Shown here: positions 11,320 to 26,726 of the stretch, piece after piece
How positions within the stretch are numbered: position 1 is the first letter of the stretch
How the letters are laid out: every line of letters begins with the position of its first letter
Assembly (NCBI RefSeq): GCF_009914755.1
Contig: NC_060934.1
DNA: 64,000 nt
Direction: 5' to 3' (one strand)
From: the human T2T-CHM13v2.0 reference genome, Homo sapiens
Translations under genes and position numbers: made by a program
The notes under the pieces: model-generated
What the model was told of the DNA's origin: nothing
Seen by the model: only the letters and a program-made list of their open reading frames with translations
The model's database searches: none

Positions 11320-11830
11320 TTAACGCGACTCCGTAAAACTACCCTCCTAGCGACCTCCAACGCCTCGGTCCTCACCCAGAACATCACATTAAACTTTTCA
11401 ACAGTCACAGATAGGAAGGGGCTCGGTGTGGAAGGTGCCAGCTCTGGCTCAGCCCTGCGGGTGAGTGTTTAACTTTCAGCCCAGCTTAAGATCTCCGAAG
11501 ACACCCATCGCCTCGTCCTGCCCAGTCCCCTCCGCTAAAGGGCCGGCCTGCCCGGGCCTGGCTGGCAGCTGACATGAATGGAGAGGAAGCGCCTCCCTCT
11601 CCACCCACTCTCGCCGGGGTTACTGCCGGTCACAGACCCGGGCCTTCAAGAGCTATTTACACCTACAACAGCCCACCAGCGCCTGACCACGCCGGAGCCA
11701 ATCAGCGGCCCCCAAGCTTGTCTGATTCTGTCTGCTCCAATCAGGAGGCGCGGTCCTTCCAGCCTCTTGCTCCTGTGAATCACAGGTCGGCGGGAGCCTT
11801 TTTTCCTTTTTTTTTTTTCCCGGGGAGTCG
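11320..11830 (+). promoter_or_regulatory. CpG-rich promoter with two NF-Y-type CCAAT boxes (putative OLMALINC promoter)
   Basis: The main non-repeat CpG-rich stretch in the window (~11320-12310). AGCCAATCAG (CCAAT 11698-11702) and TCCAATCAG (CCAAT 11737-11741) lie 39 bp apart with GC-rich flanks. No TATA box is evident. Confidence 0.75.
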
Positions 11831-12359
11831 GCCTCGGGGCTCTGCTCTCCTACCTCAGTCTGCCCTACCCTGGAATGGGGAAAATGCGGACATGCCACTC
11901 AGTCCGGCCGCGAACAGTGCTCCAGAACTCAGAGAGTTTTCCAGACGGGTGGAGATCGCGTTCCCTGCCCGCCGAGGTCCCATCGCTTCCCTGCTGGGAA
12001 GACAAATGAGGCGCTTTAGCCGTCTCCACGGCCAGCCCCTCCCTCATAACCCGAGATTCTTTGTGGGCTCTTAGTCCATAGCTGCCTTTGAGGTGGTGTA
12101 GACCTTGCTAACCAGGACGGCCCAGTAGGCAGAGCTCATTTTTATTCCTGTCTGCAATCGTGCAAAAACGCCTCTTATGGAAAAGCCAGAGCGCCAGGAG
12201 TCAGCAAAACACACTAAAGATTGGGCAGTCACTGGGGAGAACGTGAGTAAAAGCACAGGAACAGCAAAGCGTTCAGGAACGTTCGAGGCTGACGCAACCG
12301 GCGCAGGAAGGTGGTGTGTGGTGGGAGAGTGGGAGGAGACAGTGGAAAGTTTAGACTTG

Positions 12360-12950
12360 CTTCTGTAAGTGATAAGAAGTCATCAGATATTTTCAAGCAG
12401 GAGAGGAAAATAATCTCTCTGTTTCGCAAAGTTAACTCTCATGGCAACAGAGCAGAGTAGCGGGGGGATGGGGGCTGGGAGATGTTGGGAAGCTATTGTT
12501 ACCACTCTGGTGAAGAGTCATGGGACCTCAAAAGCTGGGATAGTCACGGTGGGAATGGAAAGGAAGGGCACAAGCTGAGAGGCATTTGGGAGGAGAATCA
12601 ATAGCACTTTATTGACTGGATGTGTGAGATGAGTGAGGACAGCAATCAGAAGAGGACTTTGAGGTTTCTAGCCTGAGTGGCTGGAAGGACACCACTTCCC
12701 CTACCTGAAATAGGTAGCAAAAAGGAGAGAGAAAGAGAGAAGCAGAGGGATTTTGCAAAGGGAATAGGAGTTCAGTTTTTGACATGTGGCATTTGAATTG
12801 CAAGAAGTACATCCCTGTGGATGTAATACCCAGTAGACAGTTGGGAATTAGGATCTGGTGTCGAGAAGAAAAGTAGAGATGAGATCCAAAGGGTTTATAG
12901 TGGATCGGGAGAGAAATTGATGACCTAAAGAGAAATTATAGAATAAGAAG
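12360..12950 (-). mobile_element. L2 LINE fragment
   Basis: Degenerate L2-type text (gaggtttctagcctgagtggctggaagg..., gagttcagtttttgacatgtggcatttga). Confidence 0.6.
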
Positions 12951-13429
12951 ATTTGGGCAGGGCACGGTGGCTCATGCCTGTAATCCCAGCATTTTGGGAG
13001 ACCAAGGTAGGAGGATTGCTTGAGCCCAGGAGTTTGAGACCAGCCTGGGCAACATGGTGAGACCCCGACTCTACAAAAACTGCAAAAATTAGCCGGGTGT
13101 GGTGACACATACCTGTAATTCCAGCTACTTGGGAGGCTGAGGTGGGGGGATCACCTGAGCCTGGGGAGGTCTAGGCTGCAGTGAGCTGAGATAGTGCCAC
13201 TGCACTCCAACCTGGGCAACATAGCAAGAGCAAGACCCTGTCTCAAAAGTAAAAAAAAAAAAAGAAGATTCAAGTACAGAATCTTGGGAAGGTAGAAAGA
13301 GGACACAGAGGCCAGGTGTGGTGGCTCATGCCTGTGATCCCAGCACTTTGGACGCTGAGGTGGGTGGATCATCTGAGGTCAGGAGTTCAAGACCAGCCTA
13401 GCCAACATGGTGAAACCCTGTTTCTATTA

Positions 13430-13615
<186 letters not shown>

Positions 13616-14021
13616 CTAGCAAAACAGACAAAGAAGTATCAGAAAGATATGAAAAATTAAAAAAAAGCAAACTACGATACTGTAATAGAAATAAGAAAAT
13701 AATTCCAGGAAGAGGAAGCAGGACATTGTTTATGTATGTACAAAACAGTAAGACATTGGTTAAATAAATTATAAAGCATTCATTTGATAGAATACAGCCA
13801 TTAAAATTATGTTGCAAAACTATATAATTGCCATAAAGAGATGTTCAATGCATCTTTTTTCCCCCAGTGCATCTTAGAAACACTCAGGTTAAAAAATAGT
13901 ATATATGCTGGGCACGGTGGCTCACGTCTGTAATCCTAGCACTTTGGGAGGCTGAGGCAGGTGGATCACGAGGTCAGGAGTTTGAGACCACCCTGGCCAA
14001 TGTAGTGAAACCCTGTCTCTA

Positions 14022-14913
<892 letters not shown>

Positions 14914-14989
14914 TTAGGATGAGGGAACTGTTCTATATGTTTGTTGAGGTAATGTATACACAGCTCTGTACAATTATCCAAAATCCTCA

Positions 14990-15451
14990 TAAGGGAGGAG
15001 ACCACCCCTCATATTGTCTTATGCCCAATTTCTGCCTCCAAAGAAAGAAGAAGTAAAAACTTAAAGACAGAAATGAAATCCACAGGCAGACAGCCCGGCG
15101 CCACACCCTGGGCCTGGTAGTTAAAGATCGACCCCTGACCTAATCAGTTATGTTATCTCTAAATTACAGTCATTGTGTGGAAAAGCACTGTGAAAATCCC
15201 TGTCCTGTTCTGTTCTGTTCTAATTACCAGTGCATGCAGCCCCCAGTCACATACCCCTTGCTTGCTCAATCGATCAAGACCCTTTCACGCGGACCCCCTT
15301 AGAGTTGTCAGCCCTTAAGAGGGACAGGAATTGCTTACTCAGGGAGCTCGGTTTTTGAGACGTGAGTCTTGCCGATGCTCCCGGCCAAATAAAGCCCTTC
15401 CTTCTTTAACTCGGTGTCTAAGGGGTTTTGTCTGCGGCTCGTCCTGCTACA
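14990..15451 (+). mobile_element. Solo LTR of the LTR2 (HERV-E/Harlequin) family
   Basis: Begins TAAGGGAGGAGACCACCCCTCATATTGTCTTATGCCC, ends ...gtcctgctaCA, has AATAAA 15388-15393 and a perfect 4-bp TSD CTCA (14986-14989 / 15452-15455). Confidence 0.88.
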
Positions 15452-15505
15452 CTCAAACTAGAATTCCTTAAATTTTTATTTTTTATTTTATTTATTTTTT
15501 TTTAG

Positions 15506-15853
<348 letters not shown>

Positions 15854-15899
15854 TAAATGGCAGACCAGAGCATACTGCCTGGAATATAAGAAGGGCTCA

Positions 15900-16397
<498 letters not shown>

Positions 16398-16954
16398 TTA
16401 TGAGGGACCTTGGTAGCTGACTTAGAATATGACACAAATGAGGAAATAAACCTATTCCTTATTGTCCAGAGGGTTGAATAAAGGAATAAAACTATGTGGG
16501 AATGAGAGCAAGCATGGCTATGGACAGGAAGGCAGCTCAAATAACTTGAGCTGTTCTACAGTGTCTTGGGAGGAATAAGCTGCTTCTCTCACCATATTTG
16601 TTCAACTCGTCCAAGATTCTGTAAACATGTTCCTGAATGGGATGAGATAATGGATTAGATACCTCTTAGGTTCCACCTAGTTTTAAGACTATGATATAAA
16701 GCACATCAAAGCTCTTCAACCAAACATAAGGTAATAGGAGTTATGTTATTTTCAGTCTATGGAATGGATGTCAATCTCATCTCTTTTGATTGTCAAGCTA
16801 GTTCCCATTTCTTCATGGTTTTGATCAAATCTGTTTAAGCTGTCTTTATGATCTGGACTAGGTGAGCTTAAAGTGATCATACCTGGCTGATAAATACTAA
16901 TTGCATTTCTAAGTAGGCCGCTGGTAGAAATTTAATTATTTGGTTTTAATGTGA

Positions 16955-17128
<174 letters not shown>

Positions 17129-17806
17129 TAATTTTTTATTTTTAGTAGAGATAGGGTTTCACCATATTGGCCAGGATGGTCTTGATCTCCTGACCTCGTG
17201 ATCTGCCCACCTTGGCCTCCTGAAGTGCTGGGATTATAGGGGTAAGCCACCATGCCCGGCCCTTAATGTTAGTTCTTATTATACTTCATATCTATATCAT
17301 TCATTTTGCATACTATGGTACAATAGAGAAACCATTAGGCTAGGAGTCAGTGTGACCCAGTTTCAAGTACTGGTTCTACTACTTAATAGATGTATGGCTT
17401 TGGGGAAAGGCATTTATGCAGAGGTTTTCGATGTGTAGTCCATGGACCCCTGAGCGTACCCCAAATAATTTTCAGGGTATCCATAAGACCAAAATGATGT
17501 TCATGGTGATATTAAGCCTTATTTGCCTTTTTTCACCATCACATTGACATTTCTTCTGATGGTGGGAAATTCTTTGCACCTTGATAGGAATCACGGTAGT
17601 AGCACCAAACTGTACCAGTGGGCATTACATTCCTCACTGCCCTGCACTTGGAGGGGAATTCAGTCCCCCAGGCTGGAATGCAATGATCTCGGCTCACTGC
17701 AACCTCTGCCTCCTGGGTTCAAGCGATTCTCCTGCCTCAACTTCCCAAGTAACTAGGATTACAGGTGCCTGCCACCACGCCTGGCTAATTTTTGTATTTT
17801 TAGTAG

Positions 17807-17923
<117 letters not shown>

Positions 17924-19194
17924 TGATAAAATAAAAATTATTAATTTATTAAATTTTGATCCTTAAGAGCACCTTTTAAAAATTCTGTGGCATGAAATGG
18001 GAAGTAGGAAGTACTTATAAAGTACTTCTGCTATATGTCAAAGAACAGTGGTTGTCTTGAGGGAAAACATTAGTGTGATCATTATAGTTGTGAGCTGAAT
18101 TAACCCCTTTATTCATGTAATATCCTTTTTGTTTGAAAGAATGACTGACAAACTGGTTGTTCAGACTTCGGTATTTTGCAGCTTCAAGAACATTAATAAA
18201 GTAAAATTGTTACTTCAAAGTAACAACTTGCAATATTTGTTCCAATGATAAAATTTGAGCTTTTGGCAGTGGCTCATGCCTATAATCCCAGCACTTAGGG
18301 AGGCTGAGGCGGGAGGAGCACTTGAGCTCAGGAGTTTGAGACCAGCCTGGGCAGTCTCTCCAAAAAGAAAAAAAAAATTAGCCAGGCATGGTGGCATGCA
18401 CCAGCTGAGGTGGAAGGAGCACTTGAGCCTGGGAGGCCAAGGCTGCAGTGAGCCATGATTGTACCACTGCACTCCAGCCCAGGCAACAGAGCAAGATCTT
18501 GTCAAAAAAAAGAAAAAAGAAAAGAAAAAATAGCTTTCAAGCAAAACTCAGAATTGTGGTGATCTTGCATGTGGTACTAAGCTTGACAGCTTCCTAATAA
18601 TTAAAAACTCTTCTGATGCTATCAGTGGTGATGTTCAAAAATGTCAATTTTTAAATATTATAGAATAAAATGAGCCAACATTTTAGAAGATTTGCATAAC
18701 TCAGTGAACCAATACTTTTCAAATGACCAAAACATAATGTTACAAAATCATGCATGGATAAAAGGTGCATTGAAAATGCAAATGAGGCCAGGTGTGGTGG
18801 CTCATGCCTCTAATCCCAGCATTTTGGGAGGCAGAGGCTGGAGGATCACTTGAGGCCAGGCATTTGAGACCAGCCTGGCCAACATAGCAAGATCCTATCT
18901 CTAAAAATAATAAGAGTAAGAGAATTAGCCAGGCATGGTGGCATGCGCGTGAAGTCTTAGCTACTTGGGAGGCTACGGTGGGAGGATGGCTTGAGCTTAG
19001 GAGTTTGAGGTTACAGGAAGCTATGATTGTGCCACTGCCCTCCAGCCTGGGTGATGGAGTAAGACCATGTTTCAAAAACAAAACAAAAAAAAAAGAAATG
19101 CAAGTTAGACCAATGAAGTATAATGTAATGAAATACAAAAAATTCATTGCTATGGTTTCAAATTCCCAGTGCAATTAACCTTTAAGATACTACG

Positions 19195-19580
19195 TGTCAG
19201 GCCTCTGAGCCCAAACTAAGCCATCATATCCCCTGTGACCTGCATGTATACATACAGATGGCCTGAAGCAACTGAAGATCCACAAAAGAAGTGAAAATAG
19301 CCTTAACTGATGACATTCCACCATTGAGATTTGTTCCTGCCCCACCCTAACTGATACGATATATTCTCCCCCGCCCTTAAGAAGGTACTTTGTGATATTC
19401 TCCCTGCCCTTGAGAATGTACTTTGTACGCCTATCCCAAACCTATAAGAACTAATGATAATCCCACCACCCTTTGTTGACTCCTTTTTAGACTCAGCCCG
19501 CCTGCACCCAGGTGAAATATACAGCCTTGTTGCTCACACAAAGCCTGTTTGGTGGTTTCTTCACACGGATGCATGTGACA
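19195..19580 (+). mobile_element. HERV-H 5' LTR (LTR7 family)
   Basis: TG...CA ends, TATA-like cctataag at 19441, two copies of the U3 repeat, and the poly(A) hexamer altered to AATATA (19516-19521). Confidence 0.95.
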
Positions 19581-20156
19581 TTTGGTGCTGAAGACCCAGG
19601 ACAGGAGGACTCCTTTGGGAGACCAGTGCCCTGTTGTCGCCCTCACTCCGTGAGGAGATCCACCTATGATCTCAGGTCCTCAGACCAACCAGCCCAAGGA
19701 ACATCTTGCCAATTTCAAATCGGGTAAGTGGTCTTTTCACTCTTCTCCAGCCTTTCTTGCTACCCTTCAATCTTCCTCTCTCACTACCCTTCAATCTCCC
19801 TGTCCTTCCAATTCCCGTTCTTTTTCCTCTCTAGTAGAGATAAGGAGACACATTTTATCTGTGGACCCAAAACTCCAGCGTCAGTCATGGACTCGGGAAG
19901 ACAGTCTTCCCTTGGTGTTTAATCACTGTGGGGACGCCTGCCTGATTATTCACCCACACTCCATTGGTGTCTGATCACCACGGGGATGCCTGCCTTGGTC
20001 ATTCACCCACATTCCCTTGGTGACAAGTCAATTGCGGGGACACCTGCTTTGGCTGCTCACCCACATTGCAGCCCAGGGCTGCTCAATGCCCCCCGCTGCC
20101 CCACCCGCCTTCTCCGTGCCTCTACCCTCTCTTTTCTCGGGTTTACCTCCTTCACT

Positions 20157-22480
20157 ATGGGCAACCTTCCACCCTCCATTCCTCCTTCTTCTCCCTTAGC
20201 CTGTGTTCTCAAAAACTTAAAACCTCTTCAACTCACACCTGACCTAAAACCTAAGTGTCTTATTTTCTTCTGCAACACCGCTTGGCCCCAATACAAACTC
20301 GACAATGATTCCAAATAGCCAGAAAACGGCACTTTCGAGTTCTCCATCCTACAAGTTCTAGATAATTCTTGTCATAAAATGGGCAAATGGTCTGAGGTGC
20401 CTGACGTCCAGGCATTCTTTTACACATTGGTCCCTCCCTAGTCTCTGCTCCCAATGTGACTCATCCCAAATCTTTCTTCTTTCTCTCCTTTCTGTTCCTT
20501 CGGTCTCCACCCCAAGTTCCGAGTCCTCTGAATCCTTCTTTTCTATGGACTCATCTGACCTCCCCCCTTCTCCCCAGGCTGCTCCTCGCCAGGCTGAGCC
20601 AGGTCCCAATTCTCACTTAGCCTCTGCTCCCCCACCCTATAATCCTTTTATCACCTCCCCTCCTCACACCTGGTCCAGCTTACAGTTTCGTTCCTCGACT
20701 AGCTCTCCCCGATCTGCCCAACAATTTCCTGTTAAAGAGATGGCTGACTATCCTGACTTCATCAGAGCAGGCTGGTGCCTGGCCTTCCTGGAATGAGTGG
20801 GTGTTCTGACAGGCCCCCAGTTTGTCCCATCTGCACCGCCAAGAGGTCTCCGGGTGGCCAGAGGAGCAAAGTTGCCTTCCAAGTGCCTGTTGGTGCCTGG
20901 GAGAACACAGCAGGAGTGTCGTGCGGCCCACAGCGCAGCGCATGGTGATTCTAGGCGCTGAACAACTCCCCTTGACCCTTGGGCCTGCATCTGACTCCCG
21001 GCTGCAGAATCAGAAGCTGAGTCCAGGCAACCGCTCGGCCACTCCCGGTCACTCCTCTCTGGACACCCAGTTACTAAAGTCAGCAAAGAAGATGCGGTAA
21101 TCACCGCCTGATCTCCACATGGTGAACACAACACTCTCACTAACACCTCCTTGACCAGTCAGTCTTCAGCACTGGGGGTGGACAGGCAGGTTTTCTGTGT
21201 TTACCAGAATCGCACAGGCTAAGCACAAACATGGAACCAGAGTTCCAGGTGAGGAAACCTCACTCGCAGAAGCCCAGGCTGCACCCCACCAGGTGATGCA
21301 GTGCGCCTAGGCTGTGGGTGCTAGGAGCCAAGTGCTAGGGACTCGTCATGAGTGGGAATCCCCACGTTCCTGTCACTGCTGTCAAACAGAAGGTAAACAG
21401 TCTTACGAATGTAATTCCTTAGGAAGACTTGTACAAACTTTTATTAGGATATCTATTTATTTAATACTGAACTTTGGCCTACTTTGTGATAAGACTATAA
21501 ACAAATTGAGGAAATCACTATTTCTCACTTCTGTATTTCTCAAAAAATAATTTTGTTACAGAGTTTAATATACTGTGTACTACTGATCTTCTATTGTGAA
21601 AGCAAAGCATTTCATCAAAACAAAGTATTTTAAATTATGAGTGAAAATTGTGTATGTTAATTTTGCAGCTGTAATATTAATCAAACTTTGTGTAATTCTA
21701 ATCACAAAATGATGTGCCTTAAATGCCCCTCCAGCTGTGGGTTGGCAGTGTCCAGACAGGGACCCTGAAATCCTGAATGACTGCTAGACCAATTCTATTA
21801 AAAACATTTCAAGGCAAAAAAAAAAAAAAAAGAGGTGGCTGGAGCTGAAGGCGTAGTCAAGGTTAATGCTCCTTTTTCTTCATCTGACCTCTCCCAATCA
21901 GTTAGCGTTTAGGCTGTTTTTCATCAAATATAAAAACCCAGCCCAGTTCATGGCCCATTTGGCAACAACCCTTAGATGCTTTACCGCCCTAGACCCAGAG
22001 GGGCCAGAAGGCCGTCTTATTCTCAATATGCATTTTATTACCCAACCCGCTCCGGACATTAGAAAAAGCTCCAAAAATTAGATTCCAGCCCTCAAACCCC
22101 ACAACAGGACTTAATTAACCTCACCTTCAAGGTGTACAGTAATAGAGTAGAGGCAACATATTTCTGAGTTGCAATTACTTGCCTCCACTGTGAGAGAAAC
22201 CCCAGCCACATCTCCAGCACACAAGAACTTCAAAACACCTGAATCGCAGCGGCCAGGTGTTCCTCCAGGACCGCCTCCCCCAGGGTCTTTCTTCAAGTGC
22301 TGGAAATCTGGTCACTGGGCCAAGGAATGCCTGCAGCCTGGGATTCCTCCTGAGCCATGTCCCATCTGTGCCAGACCCTACTGGAAATCAGACTGTCCAA
22401 CTCACCCAGGAGCCACTCCCAGAGCTGCTGGAACTCTGGCCCAAGACTCTCTGACTCCTTCCCAGATGTTCTCGGCTTAG
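20157..22480 (+). pseudogene. HERV-H gag remnant (matrix N-terminus, degenerate NC zinc knuckles), interrupted by a retrocopy
   Basis: ATG 20157: MGNLPPSIPPSSPLACVLKNLKPL...FFCNTAWPQYKL then stop. ORF 22169-22480 contains [13 protein letters not shown] and [13 protein letters not shown]. Confidence 0.9.
20747..21828 (+). pseudogene. 5'-truncated processed retrocopy (3' end of a cellular poly(A)+ RNA) inserted into HERV-H gag
   Basis: Non-retroviral 1.08 kb segment with an AU-rich end, ATTAAA 21797-21802, poly(A) 21816-21831 and a 13-bp TSD aaagagatggctg (20734-20746) / aaagaggtggctg (21829-21841) at a TT|AAAG L1-endonuclease-type site. Confidence 0.92.
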
Positions 22481-22539
22481 CGGCTGAAAACTGATGCTGC
22501 CCAATCGCCTCAGAAGCCTCTTGGACCATCACAGATGCT

Positions 22540-25712
<3,173 letters not shown>

Positions 25713-25745
25713 CTCTAATCCTTCTTTAACAAACAACTGCTGGCT

Positions 25746-26130
25746 TTGCATTTCTCTTTCCTCCAAAATCACCAAGGCCTCGACTTACTCACTGCTAAAA
25801 AAAGAGGACCCTGTATATTTTTAAACGAAGAGTGTTGTTTTTACCTAAATCAATCTGGCCTGGTATATGACAACATAAAAAAACTCAAGGATAGACCCCA
25901 AAAATTCGCCAACCAAGCAAATAATTATGCTGAACCCCCTTGGGCACTCCCTAATTGGATGTCCTGGGTCCTTCCAATTCTTAGTCCTTTAATACCTATT
26001 TTTCTCTTTCTCTTATTCGGACCTTGTGTCTTCCTTCTGTTTAGTTTCTCAATTCATACAAAACTGCATCCAGGCCATCAACAATCATTCTATACGACAA
26101 ATACTCCTTCTAACAAGCCCACAATATCAC
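25746..26130 (+). pseudogene. HERV-H env transmembrane-subunit remnant
   Basis: LQNHQGLDLLTAKKRGPCIFLNEECCFYLNQSG (immunosuppressive-domain-like motif plus CX6CC), then hydrophobic WVLPILSPLIPIFLFLLFGPC. SU is largely deleted. Confidence 0.88.
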
Positions 26131-26321
26131 CCCTTATCCCCAAATCTTTCTTCAGTTTAATCTCTCCTACTCTAGGTTCCCATGCCGCCCCTAATCCCAC
26201 TCAAAGCAGCCCCGAGAAACATCGCCCATTATCTCTCCATACCACCCCCAAAAATTTTCGCTGCCTCAACACTTCACCACTATTTTGTTTTGTTTTTCAT
26301 ACTAATATAAGAAGATAGGAG

Positions 26322-26676
26322 TGTCAGGCCTCTGAGTCCAAGCTAAGCCATCAAATCCCCTGTGACCTGCACGTGTACATCCAGATGACCTGAAGCAACT
26401 GAAGATCCACAAAAGAAGTGAAAGTAGCCTTAACTGATGACATTCCACCATTGTGATTTGTTCCTGCCCCACGCTAACTGATACCATATATTCTTCCCCC
26501 GCCCTTGAGAATGTACTTTGTACACCTATCCCAAACCTATAAGAACTAATGATAATCCTACCACCCTTTGCTGACTCTCTTTTTGGACTCAGCCCGCCTG
26601 CACCCAGGTGAAATAAACAGCCCTGTTGCTCACACAAAGCCTGTTTGGTGGTCTCTTCACAAGGACGTGCGTGACA
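26322..26676 (+). mobile_element. HERV-H 3' LTR (LTR7 family) with intact AATAAA
   Basis: TGTCAGGCC...GTGACA, AATAAA 26612-26617, single copy of the U3 repeat. Confidence 0.95.
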
Positions 26677-26726
26677 CTACACTTGTTGAGTTTTAGTGTA
26701 GTATCAAAGAAGAATATCCACAATTA

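What the first reader, a model, noticed from the sequence alone, without database searches (positions are those of the whole stretch)
19451..19521. Two single-base differences turn the 5' LTR from a terminator into an internal exon
Seen by comparing the two LTRs, which are identical at integration. The 5' LTR reads ctcctttttAGactcag (AG 19489-19490, with a pyrimidine tract and branch-point-like ctaat at 19451) where the 3' LTR reads ctctctttttGGactcag. The 5' LTR has AATATA (19516-19521) where the 3' LTR has AATAAA (26612-26617). Inference: gaining an acceptor and losing the poly(A) signal within ~30 bp is what an upstream transcript needs to splice in and read through, so these may be the enabling mutations for the lncRNA.
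Basis: partly seen in the sequence, partly recalled or inferred. Interest (0 to 1): 0.75.

Follow-up and report, generated by a model that had tools for sequence, protein, structure and literature searches.

The report
Retroviral LTR turned lncRNA exon
The middle exon of the human lncRNA OLMALINC is cut out of the upstream LTR of an old HERV-H provirus, and that LTR has gained a splice acceptor and weakened its poly(A) signal since integration; this is a tidy but ordinary case of a mobile element becoming an exon.

Summary
The 5' LTR (19195-19580) has TAG|A at 19488-19491 and AATATA at 19516-19521. The 3' LTR (26322-26676) has TGG and AATAAA.

Both 5' states are derived:
- At 19489, the 29 closest genomic copies read G 20, A 6, T 3. 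At 19520 they read A 27, T 2.
- Genome-wide, 1064 R-region copies have GG and 282 have AG. 1260 have AATAAA and 5 have AATATA.

RefSeq and RT-PCR in Mills 2015 show the acceptor is used.

- The two changes sit among 19 substitutions and five gaps between the LTRs.
- AG occurs in 21% of copies and altered hexamers in 6.4%. The two are not associated (16 joint copies, 18 expected, p=0.68).
- The branch-point-like motif, pyrimidine tract, retroviral donor, exon-3 acceptor and 3' poly(A) signal are all ancestral.
- An older AG lies 6 nt downstream of the new one.
- AAUAUA is weakened (62-fold lower mPSF affinity), not dead.
- The donor 208 nt downstream of the hexamer could suppress an intact signal, as in HIV-1.

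This is a new member of a known kind, of modest interest.

The parts
11807..12242 (+). OLMALINC exon 1 (not retroviral). The donor AAC|GTGAGT follows at 12243-12248.
   Evidence: Hub RefSeq table; sequence.
19190..19194 (+). 5' target-site duplication, CTACG.
   Evidence: It matches CTACA at 26677-26681 at 4 of 5 bases.
19195..19580 (+). 5' LTR (TG...CA, 386 bp) of a HERV-H provirus. Mills 2015 labels it LTR7B.
   Evidence: figure legend read.
19444..19455 (+). TATA-like TATAAGA (19444-19450) and branch-point-like CTAAT (19451-19455). Both are identical in the 3' LTR, so both are ancestral.
   Evidence: Promoter and branch-point roles are inferred, not tested.
19480..19488 (+). Uninterrupted 9-nt pyrimidine tract CTCCTTTTT abutting the acceptor. 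16 of the 19 bases at 19470-19488 are pyrimidines. No AG occurs between 19455 and 19488.
19489..19490 (+). Derived acceptor AG. The sister LTR has GG at 26585-26586.
   Evidence: At 19489, 20 of 29 relatives have G. Genome-wide counts are GG 1064 and AG 282.
19491..19723 (+). OLMALINC exon 2. It consists of the rest of R, U5, the primer-binding region and the leader, up to the retroviral splice donor.
   Evidence: Hub RefSeq table.
19495..19496 (+). Older AG (ACTCAG), present in both LTRs and in relatives. It is a latent acceptor 6 nt downstream of the new one.
19516..19521 (+). Weakened poly(A) hexamer AATATA, derived by A to T at 19520. The site homologous to the 3' cleavage site is about 19536.
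   Evidence: 27 of 29 relatives have A. AATATA occurs in 5 of 1346 copies.
19724..19729 (+). Retroviral leader splice donor GTAAGT. The GT is ancestral. The T at +6 (19729) is probably a CpG-decay improvement of GTAAGC.
   Evidence: 7 of 7 relatives with a leader keep GT, 6 as GTAAGC and 1 as GTAAGT. Genome-wide counts are 24 GTAAGT and 51 GTAAGC.
19581..26321 (+). Degenerate proviral interior forming intron 2. Open stretches with protease, RNase H, integrase and env-TM remnants lie in retroviral order.
   Evidence: RVP 1.7e-07, RNase_H 1.6e-19, rve 1.9e-06 (below Pfam's cut-off), TLV_coat 3e-25.
26309..26321 (+). Polypurine tract next to the 3' LTR. It holds the exon 3 acceptor AAGAAG|ATAGG (AG at 26313-26314), preceded by a T-rich run.
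   Evidence: AAG|A is kept in 7 of 7 relatives that have this region.
26315..26632 (+). OLMALINC exon 3. It consists of the polypurine tract, U3 and R of the 3' LTR, ending at the LTR's own cleavage site.
   Evidence: Hub RefSeq table.
26322..26676 (+). 3' LTR (355 bp). It lacks about 31-33 bp that the 5' LTR has at about 19373-19405, a derived deletion.
   Evidence: All 29 relatives carry the segment.
26612..26617 (+). Intact AATAAA, used to end the lncRNA 15 nt downstream.
   Evidence: hub RefSeq table.

Best explanation
OLMALINC exons 2 and 3 are carved from one HERV-H provirus (LTR7B type) that integrated roughly 22-28 million years ago.

Transcripts start at the conserved non-retroviral promoter of exon 1. 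They then take three steps:
- They splice into the 5' LTR at a TAG|A acceptor made by a post-integration G to A change at 19489.
- They run through the R-region poly(A) site, whose hexamer is now AATATA.
- They leave at the retrovirus's own leader donor (19723|GTAAGT), re-enter at an AG in the polypurine tract, and end at the intact poly(A) signal of the 3' LTR.

Most of the machinery was already there at integration: the branch-point-like motif, the pyrimidine tract, the donor, the second acceptor and the terminator. Only the acceptor AG had to be gained for this exact junction.

The weakened hexamer and a donor +6 C to T change probably raise inclusion. They are not shown to be required.

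Shown: the sequence states, their polarity, and use of the junctions. Inferred: the causal role of each change, and the position of the LTR's transcription start.
For: - The states are at the stated coordinates.
- Polarity from close copies: at 19489 the 29 closest copies read G 20, A 6, T 3. At 19520 they read A 27, T 2. These copies were picked for likeness to the 5' LTR, so that bias works against calling its states derived.
- Polarity genome-wide: GG 1064 against AG 282, and AATAAA 1260 against AATATA 5.
- The junction sits exactly after the AG in NR_026762.1. Mills 2015 reports even RNA-seq coverage of the three exons and Sanger-sequenced RT-PCR.
- The donor GT is kept in 7 of 7 relatives with a leader. 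The exon-3 acceptor is kept in 7 of 7 relatives with a 3' end.
- AAUAUA binds mPSF 62-fold more weakly than AAUAAA, 2,500 against 40 nM (PMC12421377, Table 1 and passages).
- LTR divergence of 5.4% (JC 0.056) gives 22-28 My at 1.0-1.3e-9 per site per year (the rates are recalled). This fits exons 2 and 3 being present in rhesus but not marmoset.
Against: - No experiment or orthologue sequence ties either change to the onset of splicing.
- AG and altered hexamers are common and independent in the family: 21% and 6.4%, with 16 joint copies against 18 expected (p=0.68). The pair is therefore what neutral decay yields in about 1% of copies.
- A first downstream AG (19495-19496) exists in the ancestral state and might have served as acceptor.
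- AAUAUA is still listed as 2.85% of human poly(A) signals.
- A donor about 200 nt downstream can silence an intact retroviral 5' signal.
Confidence: 0.6

Rival explanations
1. Only the acceptor change matters, and the AATATA change is a neutral passenger. The R-region poly(A) site of a 5' LTR is already silenced in context by U1 snRNP at the leader donor about 200 nt downstream. Every LTR-driven HERV-H RNA must likewise read through it.
For: - The hexamer lies 66 nt downstream of the end of the TATA-like box, so by inference it is inside R.
- The donor is 208 nt after the hexamer start. HIV-1's donor is 195 nt downstream and suppresses its 5' site (PMC3694450, background passages).
- Altered hexamers are no commoner with AG (16 of 282) than with GG (70 of 1064).
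- One in about 10 LTRs with seven derived substitutions would hit the hexamer by chance.
Against: - Transcripts coming from 7 kb upstream lack any promoter-proximity effect.
- A strong signal 25 nt after an acceptor could define a short terminal exon.
- The change costs 62-fold in mPSF affinity.
- According to the background read, MLV-type viruses do not rely on the donor.
Confidence: 0.25
2. Neither change was needed. The ancestral LTR could already be spliced into at ACTCAG|CC (19496|19497), using the same branch point and pyrimidine tract. The G to A only moved the junction 6 nt upstream.
For: - ACTCAG is present in both LTRs and in 28 of 29 relatives.
- It is the first AG after the branch-point-like motif in the 3' LTR.
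- A 10-nt pyrimidine run lies 9-18 nt upstream of it.
Against: - Three purines (GGA) separate the tract from that AG.
- No use of that site is annotated in the table I was given.
- According to Mills 2015, rhesus carries the provirus but shows no exon 2 or 3 expression.
Confidence: 0.1
3. Exon 2 is really a first exon driven by the LTR promoter, and its apparent acceptor is a coincidence next to the LTR's start site.
For: 19491 lies about 40 nt after the TATA-like box. Mills 2015 describes a second, two-exon isoform (OLMALINC-003) that lacks exon 1.
Against: - RefSeq joins 12242 to 19491 across a GT...AG intron.
- Mills 2015 reports equal read depth on all three exons and sequenced RT-PCR products of the three-exon form.
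- At 1517 nt, OLMALINC-003 must start upstream of the LTR rather than in it. This is my arithmetic, not stated in the paper.
Confidence: 0.03

Closest known systems
ERV exonization through an acceptor in the 5' LTR and the internal retroviral donor (the mouse ETn mode; van de Lagemaat, Medstrand and Mager 2006, PMC1794541)
   Same: The architecture matches: an upstream transcript splices into the 5' LTR and leaves at a donor in the proviral interior. The paper stresses that the acceptor is the prerequisite, and that either a donor or a poly(A) signal completes the event (passages read).
   Different: In ETn the most frequently predicted acceptor lies downstream of the LTR's poly(A) site. In OLMALINC it lies 25 nt upstream of the hexamer, so the exon has to read through it. 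ETn events are new mutations that damage genes, whereas this is a fixed lncRNA exon.
Alu exonization by single point mutations that create or strengthen a 3' splice site (recalled: Lev-Maor et al. 2003; Sorek et al. 2004)
   Same: A pre-existing pyrimidine tract in a repeat becomes an acceptor through one transition that makes an AG. A second AG a few bases away competes with it.
   Different: The element here is an LTR in sense orientation rather than an antisense Alu. The donor is the virus's own strong site, not a second chance mutation.
HERV-H / LTR7-derived lncRNAs (for example those reviewed in PMC12228294; Kapusta 2013, PMC3636048, seen only in a search listing)
   Same: HERV-H sequence supplies exons, splice sites and the poly(A) site of a primate-specific lncRNA.
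   Different: The review says HERV-H typically gives the 5' end and start site of chimeric transcripts. In OLMALINC the promoter is non-retroviral and the 5' LTR is an internal exon.
[quoted passage not shown]
   Same: The signal is in R, and a strong donor lies about 200 nt downstream (195 nt in HIV-1, 208 nt here).
   Different: Here the hexamer itself is also mutated. U1 dependence is untested for HERV-H. The same background says MLV, a gammaretrovirus like HERV-H, does not depend on its donor.

Membership tests
HERV-H provirus with LTR7B-type LTRs | Two direct LTRs with TG...CA ends flanking an interior | tested here: met
   19195-19580 and 26322-26676. There are 19 substitutions in 350 aligned columns.
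HERV-H provirus with LTR7B-type LTRs | Target-site duplication | tested here: met
   CTACG against CTACA, 4 of 5 bases identical.
HERV-H provirus with LTR7B-type LTRs | Interior with retroviral pol and env remnants in order on the same strand | tested here: met
   RVP, RNase_H, rve (below cut-off) and TLV_coat hits on + strand open stretches.
HERV-H provirus with LTR7B-type LTRs | LTR belongs to a multicopy genomic family | tested here: met
   40 of 40 scored matches at 90-100% identity, out of 2308 first-look candidates. 1346 copies match the R pattern.
HERV-H provirus with LTR7B-type LTRs | Best match to the LTR7B model rather than LTR7, 7C or 7Y | not testable with these tools
   No Dfam or Repbase models are at hand. 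The label comes from the RepeatMasker track described in the Figure 1 legend of Mills 2015.
HERV-H provirus with LTR7B-type LTRs | Primer-binding site for tRNA-His | not tested
   TGGTGC... follows the LTR at 19583. The tRNA-His match is recalled only.
U2-type cassette exon born by point mutation in a repeat | AG acceptor after a pyrimidine tract and GT donor at the annotated exon ends | tested here: met
   CTCCTTTTTAG|A at 19480-19491 and CGG|GTAAGT at 19721-19729, combined with the hub RefSeq table.
U2-type cassette exon born by point mutation in a repeat | The splice-site base is derived relative to the element's ancestral state | tested here: met
   Sister LTR has G. 20 of 29 relatives have G. 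1064 of 1346 genomic copies have GG.
U2-type cassette exon born by point mutation in a repeat | The mutation is causal for inclusion | not testable with these tools
   This needs orthologue sequences with matched RNA data, or a bench test.
Canonical mammalian poly(A) signal in the 5' LTR | AAUAAA or AUUAAA 10-30 nt upstream of the cleavage site | tested here: not met
   AATATA at 19516-19521. The 3' LTR meets the feature: AATAAA at 26612-26617 and transcript end at 26632.
Donor-dependent (HIV-1-type) silencing of a 5' LTR poly(A) site | Signal in R with a strong 5' splice site about 200 nt downstream | tested here: met
   Hexamer starts at 19516 and donor at 19724, 208 nt apart. That the signal lies in R is inferred from the TATA-like box.
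Donor-dependent (HIV-1-type) silencing of a 5' LTR poly(A) site | Cleavage rises when U1 binding is blocked | not testable with these tools
   This is a bench assay.

The most novel reading that the evidence does not exclude
OLMALINC's three-exon form was switched on in the great-ape lineage by two or three datable point changes in a provirus that had sat silent since the catarrhine ancestor. The changes are a non-CpG G to A that made a rare TAG acceptor (3 such copies genome-wide), an A to T that cut poly(A)-factor affinity 62-fold, and a CpG C to T that improved the donor. The hexamer change would be truly required, because transcripts arriving from a promoter 7 kb upstream escape whatever normally silences the 5' signal in LTR-driven RNAs. 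If so, the locus would be a base-by-base, testable account of how a functional, highly expressed brain lncRNA exon was born.
Probability: 0.25. Interest if true: 0.5.

Novelty: new member of a known kind. Interest (0 to 1): 0.35.

Why it matters
OLMALINC is an abundant, primate-specific lncRNA linked to oligodendrocyte maturation and to its neighbour SCD. Most accounts of HERV-H in lncRNAs concern the LTR as promoter. Here the promoter is ancient and non-viral, and the provirus supplies the splice sites of exons 2 and 3 and the terminator.

The locus shows how little was needed. One derived AG sits on top of ready-made retroviral signals, perhaps helped by a weakened poly(A) hexamer and a better donor.

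It also makes a sharp, cheap prediction for primate genomes. Species that express exons 2 and 3 (human, chimpanzee, orangutan) should carry the AG. Rhesus, which has the provirus but no expression, may not.

The wider lesson from the genome-wide counts is that such enabling states are common by neutral decay. At least 282 family copies already carry the AG, and at least 16 carry AG plus an altered hexamer. Raw material for this route is therefore plentiful, and the coincidence by itself is no sign of selection.

Tried and rejected
- **RNA structure hiding the 5' signal, as with the HIV-1 poly(A) hairpin.** 80-nt folds of both R-U5 stretches are no more stable than shuffles (z +0.73 and +1.07). 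Rejected.
- **AATATA inherited from a shared source lineage, which would reverse the polarity.** The five AATATA copies lie in different LTR subfamilies (73% and 70% identity for two of them). They occupy different positions (5' LTR, 3' LTR). They share none of the other changes specific to the OLMALINC 5' LTR, such as 19476 T and 19557 T. Rejected.
- **Association between AG and hexamer loss across the family.** None found (Fisher p=0.68).
- **Clustering of 5'-LTR-derived substitutions.** Four of the seven derived substitutions fall in 19476-19557. I judged this post hoc and not convincing.
- **Formal splice-site scores.** No MaxEnt-type scorer was available. I give base counts only.
- **Literature.** Full-text searches for OLMALINC+HERVH, OLMALINC+LTR7B and LINC00263+HERV found 1, 1 and 3 papers. 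I read only Mills 2015, and only in passages and section 5. It mentions an LTR covering exon 3 only, and nothing about exon 2, splice-site origin or the poly(A) hexamers in the passages I searched.
- **Supplements of Mills 2015.** I listed them but did not read them. Additional file 4 (primate RNA-seq) may bear on the dating. Additional file 2 (Sanger alignments) may bear on the exact junction, but it is not among the listed files.

Full report
**1. Observation.**
- The 5' LTR reads CTCCTTTTTAG|ACTCAG, with AG at 19489-19490.
- CTAAT is at 19451-19455 and AATATA at 19516-19521.
- The 3' LTR reads CTCTCTTTTTGGACTCAG, with GG at 26585-26586, and has AATAAA at 26612-26617.
- The hub's RefSeq table starts exon 2 at 19491, the base after the AG. 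It ends exon 3 at 26632, 15 nt after the 3' hexamer.

**2. Anatomy.**
- The LTRs are 19195-19580 (386 bp) and 26322-26676 (355 bp). Both run TG...CA, and they are flanked by CTACG and CTACA.
- Between them, open stretches on the + strand match retroviral protease, RNase H, integrase (below cut-off) and the C-terminal part of a gammaretrovirus-type env, in that order.
- The Figure 1 legend of Mills et al. 2015 (PMC4302521; passages and section 5 read) labels the repeats LTR7B and HERVH-int. I could not test the subfamily call.
- Exon 1 (11807-12242) is not retroviral and ends AAC|GTGAGT.
- Exon 2 (19491-19723) is the rest of R, U5, the primer-binding region and the leader. It ends at CGG|GTAAGT.
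- Exon 3 (26315-26632) starts at an AG inside the polypurine tract (AAGAAG|ATAGGAG) and runs through U3 and R of the 3' LTR.
- The provirus therefore supplies the splice sites of exons 2 and 3 and the terminator. Exon 1 supplies its own donor.

**3. Differences between the LTRs.**
- A global alignment gives 19 substitutions in 350 aligned columns (5.4%) and five gaps of 33, 2, 2, 1 and 1 nt.
- The JC distance of 0.056 gives 22-28 My at 1.0-1.3e-9 per site per year (the rates are recalled).

**4. Polarity.**
- A DNA search of the window's own genome with the 5' LTR gave 2308 first-look candidates. 40 were scored, and 30 were kept as loci, including the query itself.
- I used the 29 non-self loci, each aligned pairwise to the 5' LTR.
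- At 19489 they read G 20, A 6, T 3. At 19520 they read A 27, T 2.
- Across all 19 substitutions, seven are derived in the 5' LTR, eleven in the 3' LTR, and one is ambiguous.
- These relatives were chosen for likeness to the 5' LTR. That bias works against calling its states derived, so the two calls are robust.
- Exact-pattern counts over the whole genome, free of that bias, agree:

| Acceptor-site state | Any hexamer | AATAAA | AATATA |
|---|---|---|---|
| GG | 1064 | 994 | 3 |
| AG | 282 | 266 | 2 |

- They cover only copies that match the other positions of a 35-nt pattern, so they are lower bounds and leave out more decayed copies.

**5. Mutational path at the acceptor.**
- Family copies mostly read T-run, then CGG, then ACTCAG. 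That is a CpG, and it decays to TGG (240 copies), or to CAG, seen in 6 of the 29 relatives.
- The OLMALINC 5' LTR reads TAG, which is rare: 3 copies genome-wide.
- The 3' LTR reads TGG. The most economical history is therefore integration with TGG, followed by a plain G to A in the 5' LTR plus loss of one T from CTCTC.

**6. Ancestral features.**
- The CTAAT motif and the pyrimidine run are shared by both LTRs and by relatives.
- No AG lies between 19455 and 19488.
- In the ancestral state, the first AG after the branch-point-like motif is ACTCAG (19495-19496 in the 5' LTR). That is a latent acceptor only 6 nt from the new one.
- Of the 29 relatives, seven carry the leader, and all seven keep the GT donor. 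Seven others carry the 3' end, and all seven keep AAG|A in the polypurine tract. The other 15 matched neither probe.
- Six of the seven leaders read GTAAGC, and OLMALINC reads GTAAGT. Genome-wide, 24 comparable leaders have GTAAGT, all followed by G, and 51 have GTAAGC. This is a third derived change, CpG decay at 19729, that brings the donor closer to the U1 consensus.

**7. Chance.**
- AG occurs in 21.0% of the 1346 copies. A hexamer other than AATAAA occurs in 6.4%.
- Both occur in 16 copies, against 18.0 expected (Fisher p=0.68). For AATATA alone, 2 are observed against 1.05 expected.
- With seven derived substitutions in 386 bp, the chance that at least one hits the hexamer is about 10%.
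- The pairing is what neutral decay gives. That does not argue against an enabling role, but it is no evidence of selection.

**8. The poly(A) change.**
- Huang, Chu and Tong 2025 (PMC12421377; abstract, Table 1 and passages read) give a Kd of 40 nM for AAUAAA and 2,500 nM for AAUAUA, a 62-fold loss. They list AAUAUA as 2.85% of human signals. The site is weakened, not abolished.
- The hexamer lies 66 nt downstream of the end of the TATA-like box. By inference it is in R, and every LTR-driven HERV-H RNA must read through it.
- The background of Schrom et al. 2013 (PMC3694450; abstract and background passages read) summarises the HIV-1 case. HIV-1's 5' site is silenced by U1 snRNP at the major donor, 195 nt downstream. 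Here the donor is 208 nt after the hexamer start.
- The same text notes that MLV does not use this route, so the analogy is open.
- RNA folds of the two R-U5 stretches are no better than shuffles.
- Mills 2015 also describes a 1517-nt two-exon isoform that shares the exon 2-3 junction. By my arithmetic its first exon would start upstream of the LTR and read through all of it. That fits a poorly used 5' site, whatever the cause.

**9. Use of the acceptor.** NR_026762.1 joins 12242 to 19491. Mills 2015 reports this as the main isoform, with equal read depth on each exon and with RT-PCR products confirmed by Sanger sequencing.

**10. Mechanism and rivals.**
- My best reading (0.6) is that the G to A gave the acceptor needed for this junction. 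The weakened hexamer and the improved donor probably raise inclusion, on top of ready-made retroviral signals.
- Rival 1 (0.25): the hexamer change is a passenger.
- Rival 2 (0.1): the ACTCAG site would have sufficed.
- Rival 3 (0.03): exon 2 is LTR-promoted.

**11. Comparison with known systems.**
- Splicing into a 5' LTR and out at the internal donor is a described mode of ERV exonization (van de Lagemaat et al. 2006, PMC1794541; passages read). That paper stresses the acceptor as the key requirement.
- A 2025 review (PMC12228294; passages read) says HERV-H usually forms the 5' end of chimeric RNAs. An internal-exon role is therefore the less usual one.
- Acceptor birth by one transition in a repeat is the Alu-exon pattern (recalled, not read).

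**12. Novelty and score.**
- No paper found by three full-text searches links OLMALINC or LINC00263 to these LTR changes.
- I rate this a new member of a known kind, interest 0.35.

**13. Limits.**
- No primate orthologues, expression data, splice-site scorer or repeat-model library were available.
- The supplements of Mills 2015 were listed but not read.

Noticed in passing
G000 C10:32167520, C10:100147162, C10:101265489 (this window, 19489-19523), C10:104407572; C3:75527767: Four of the five genomic LTR copies with AATATA in this R pattern lie on chromosome 10, three of them within 4.3 Mb. The post-hoc chance is about 3e-4. They belong to different LTR subfamilies and share no other variants specific to the OLMALINC 5' LTR. 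A common origin or a long conversion tract is therefore not supported. Unexplained.
   Followed up: partly
L021 / L023 (G000 C10:32162708-32167847, minus strand): A second provirus of the same LTR type shows the same asymmetry. Its 5' LTR has AATATA and its 3' LTR has AATAAA. In that provirus it is the 3' LTR that carries CAG at the acceptor-homologous site.
   Followed up: partly
window 19373-19405 against 26500/26501: The 3' LTR lacks about 31-33 bp, one unit of an old, already diverged tandem duplication in U3. The 5' LTR and all 29 relatives have it. The deletion is therefore derived, and it shortens OLMALINC exon 3.
   Followed up: yes
window 19729: The exon 2 donor reads GTAAGT, where 6 of 7 related leaders read GTAAGC. 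Genome-wide counts are 24 against 51, and the T state is always followed by G, as CpG decay predicts.
   Followed up: yes
window 26309-26321: The exon 3 acceptor AG (26313-26314) sits inside the retroviral polypurine tract, behind a T-rich run. It is kept in 7 of 7 relatives that have this region. The plus-strand primer site thus doubles as a 3' splice site.
   Followed up: partly
G000 C10:104407515-104409573 (L033/L034): Two LTRs of another LTR7-like subfamily lie only about 1.2 kb apart in the same orientation, forming a heavily deleted element. The downstream LTR carries the only other AG plus AATATA combination in the genome.
   Followed up: partly
window 19000-19095: An Alu-like sequence with an A-rich tail ends about 100 bp upstream of the 5' LTR, inside intron 1. 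I did not examine it further.
   Followed up: no
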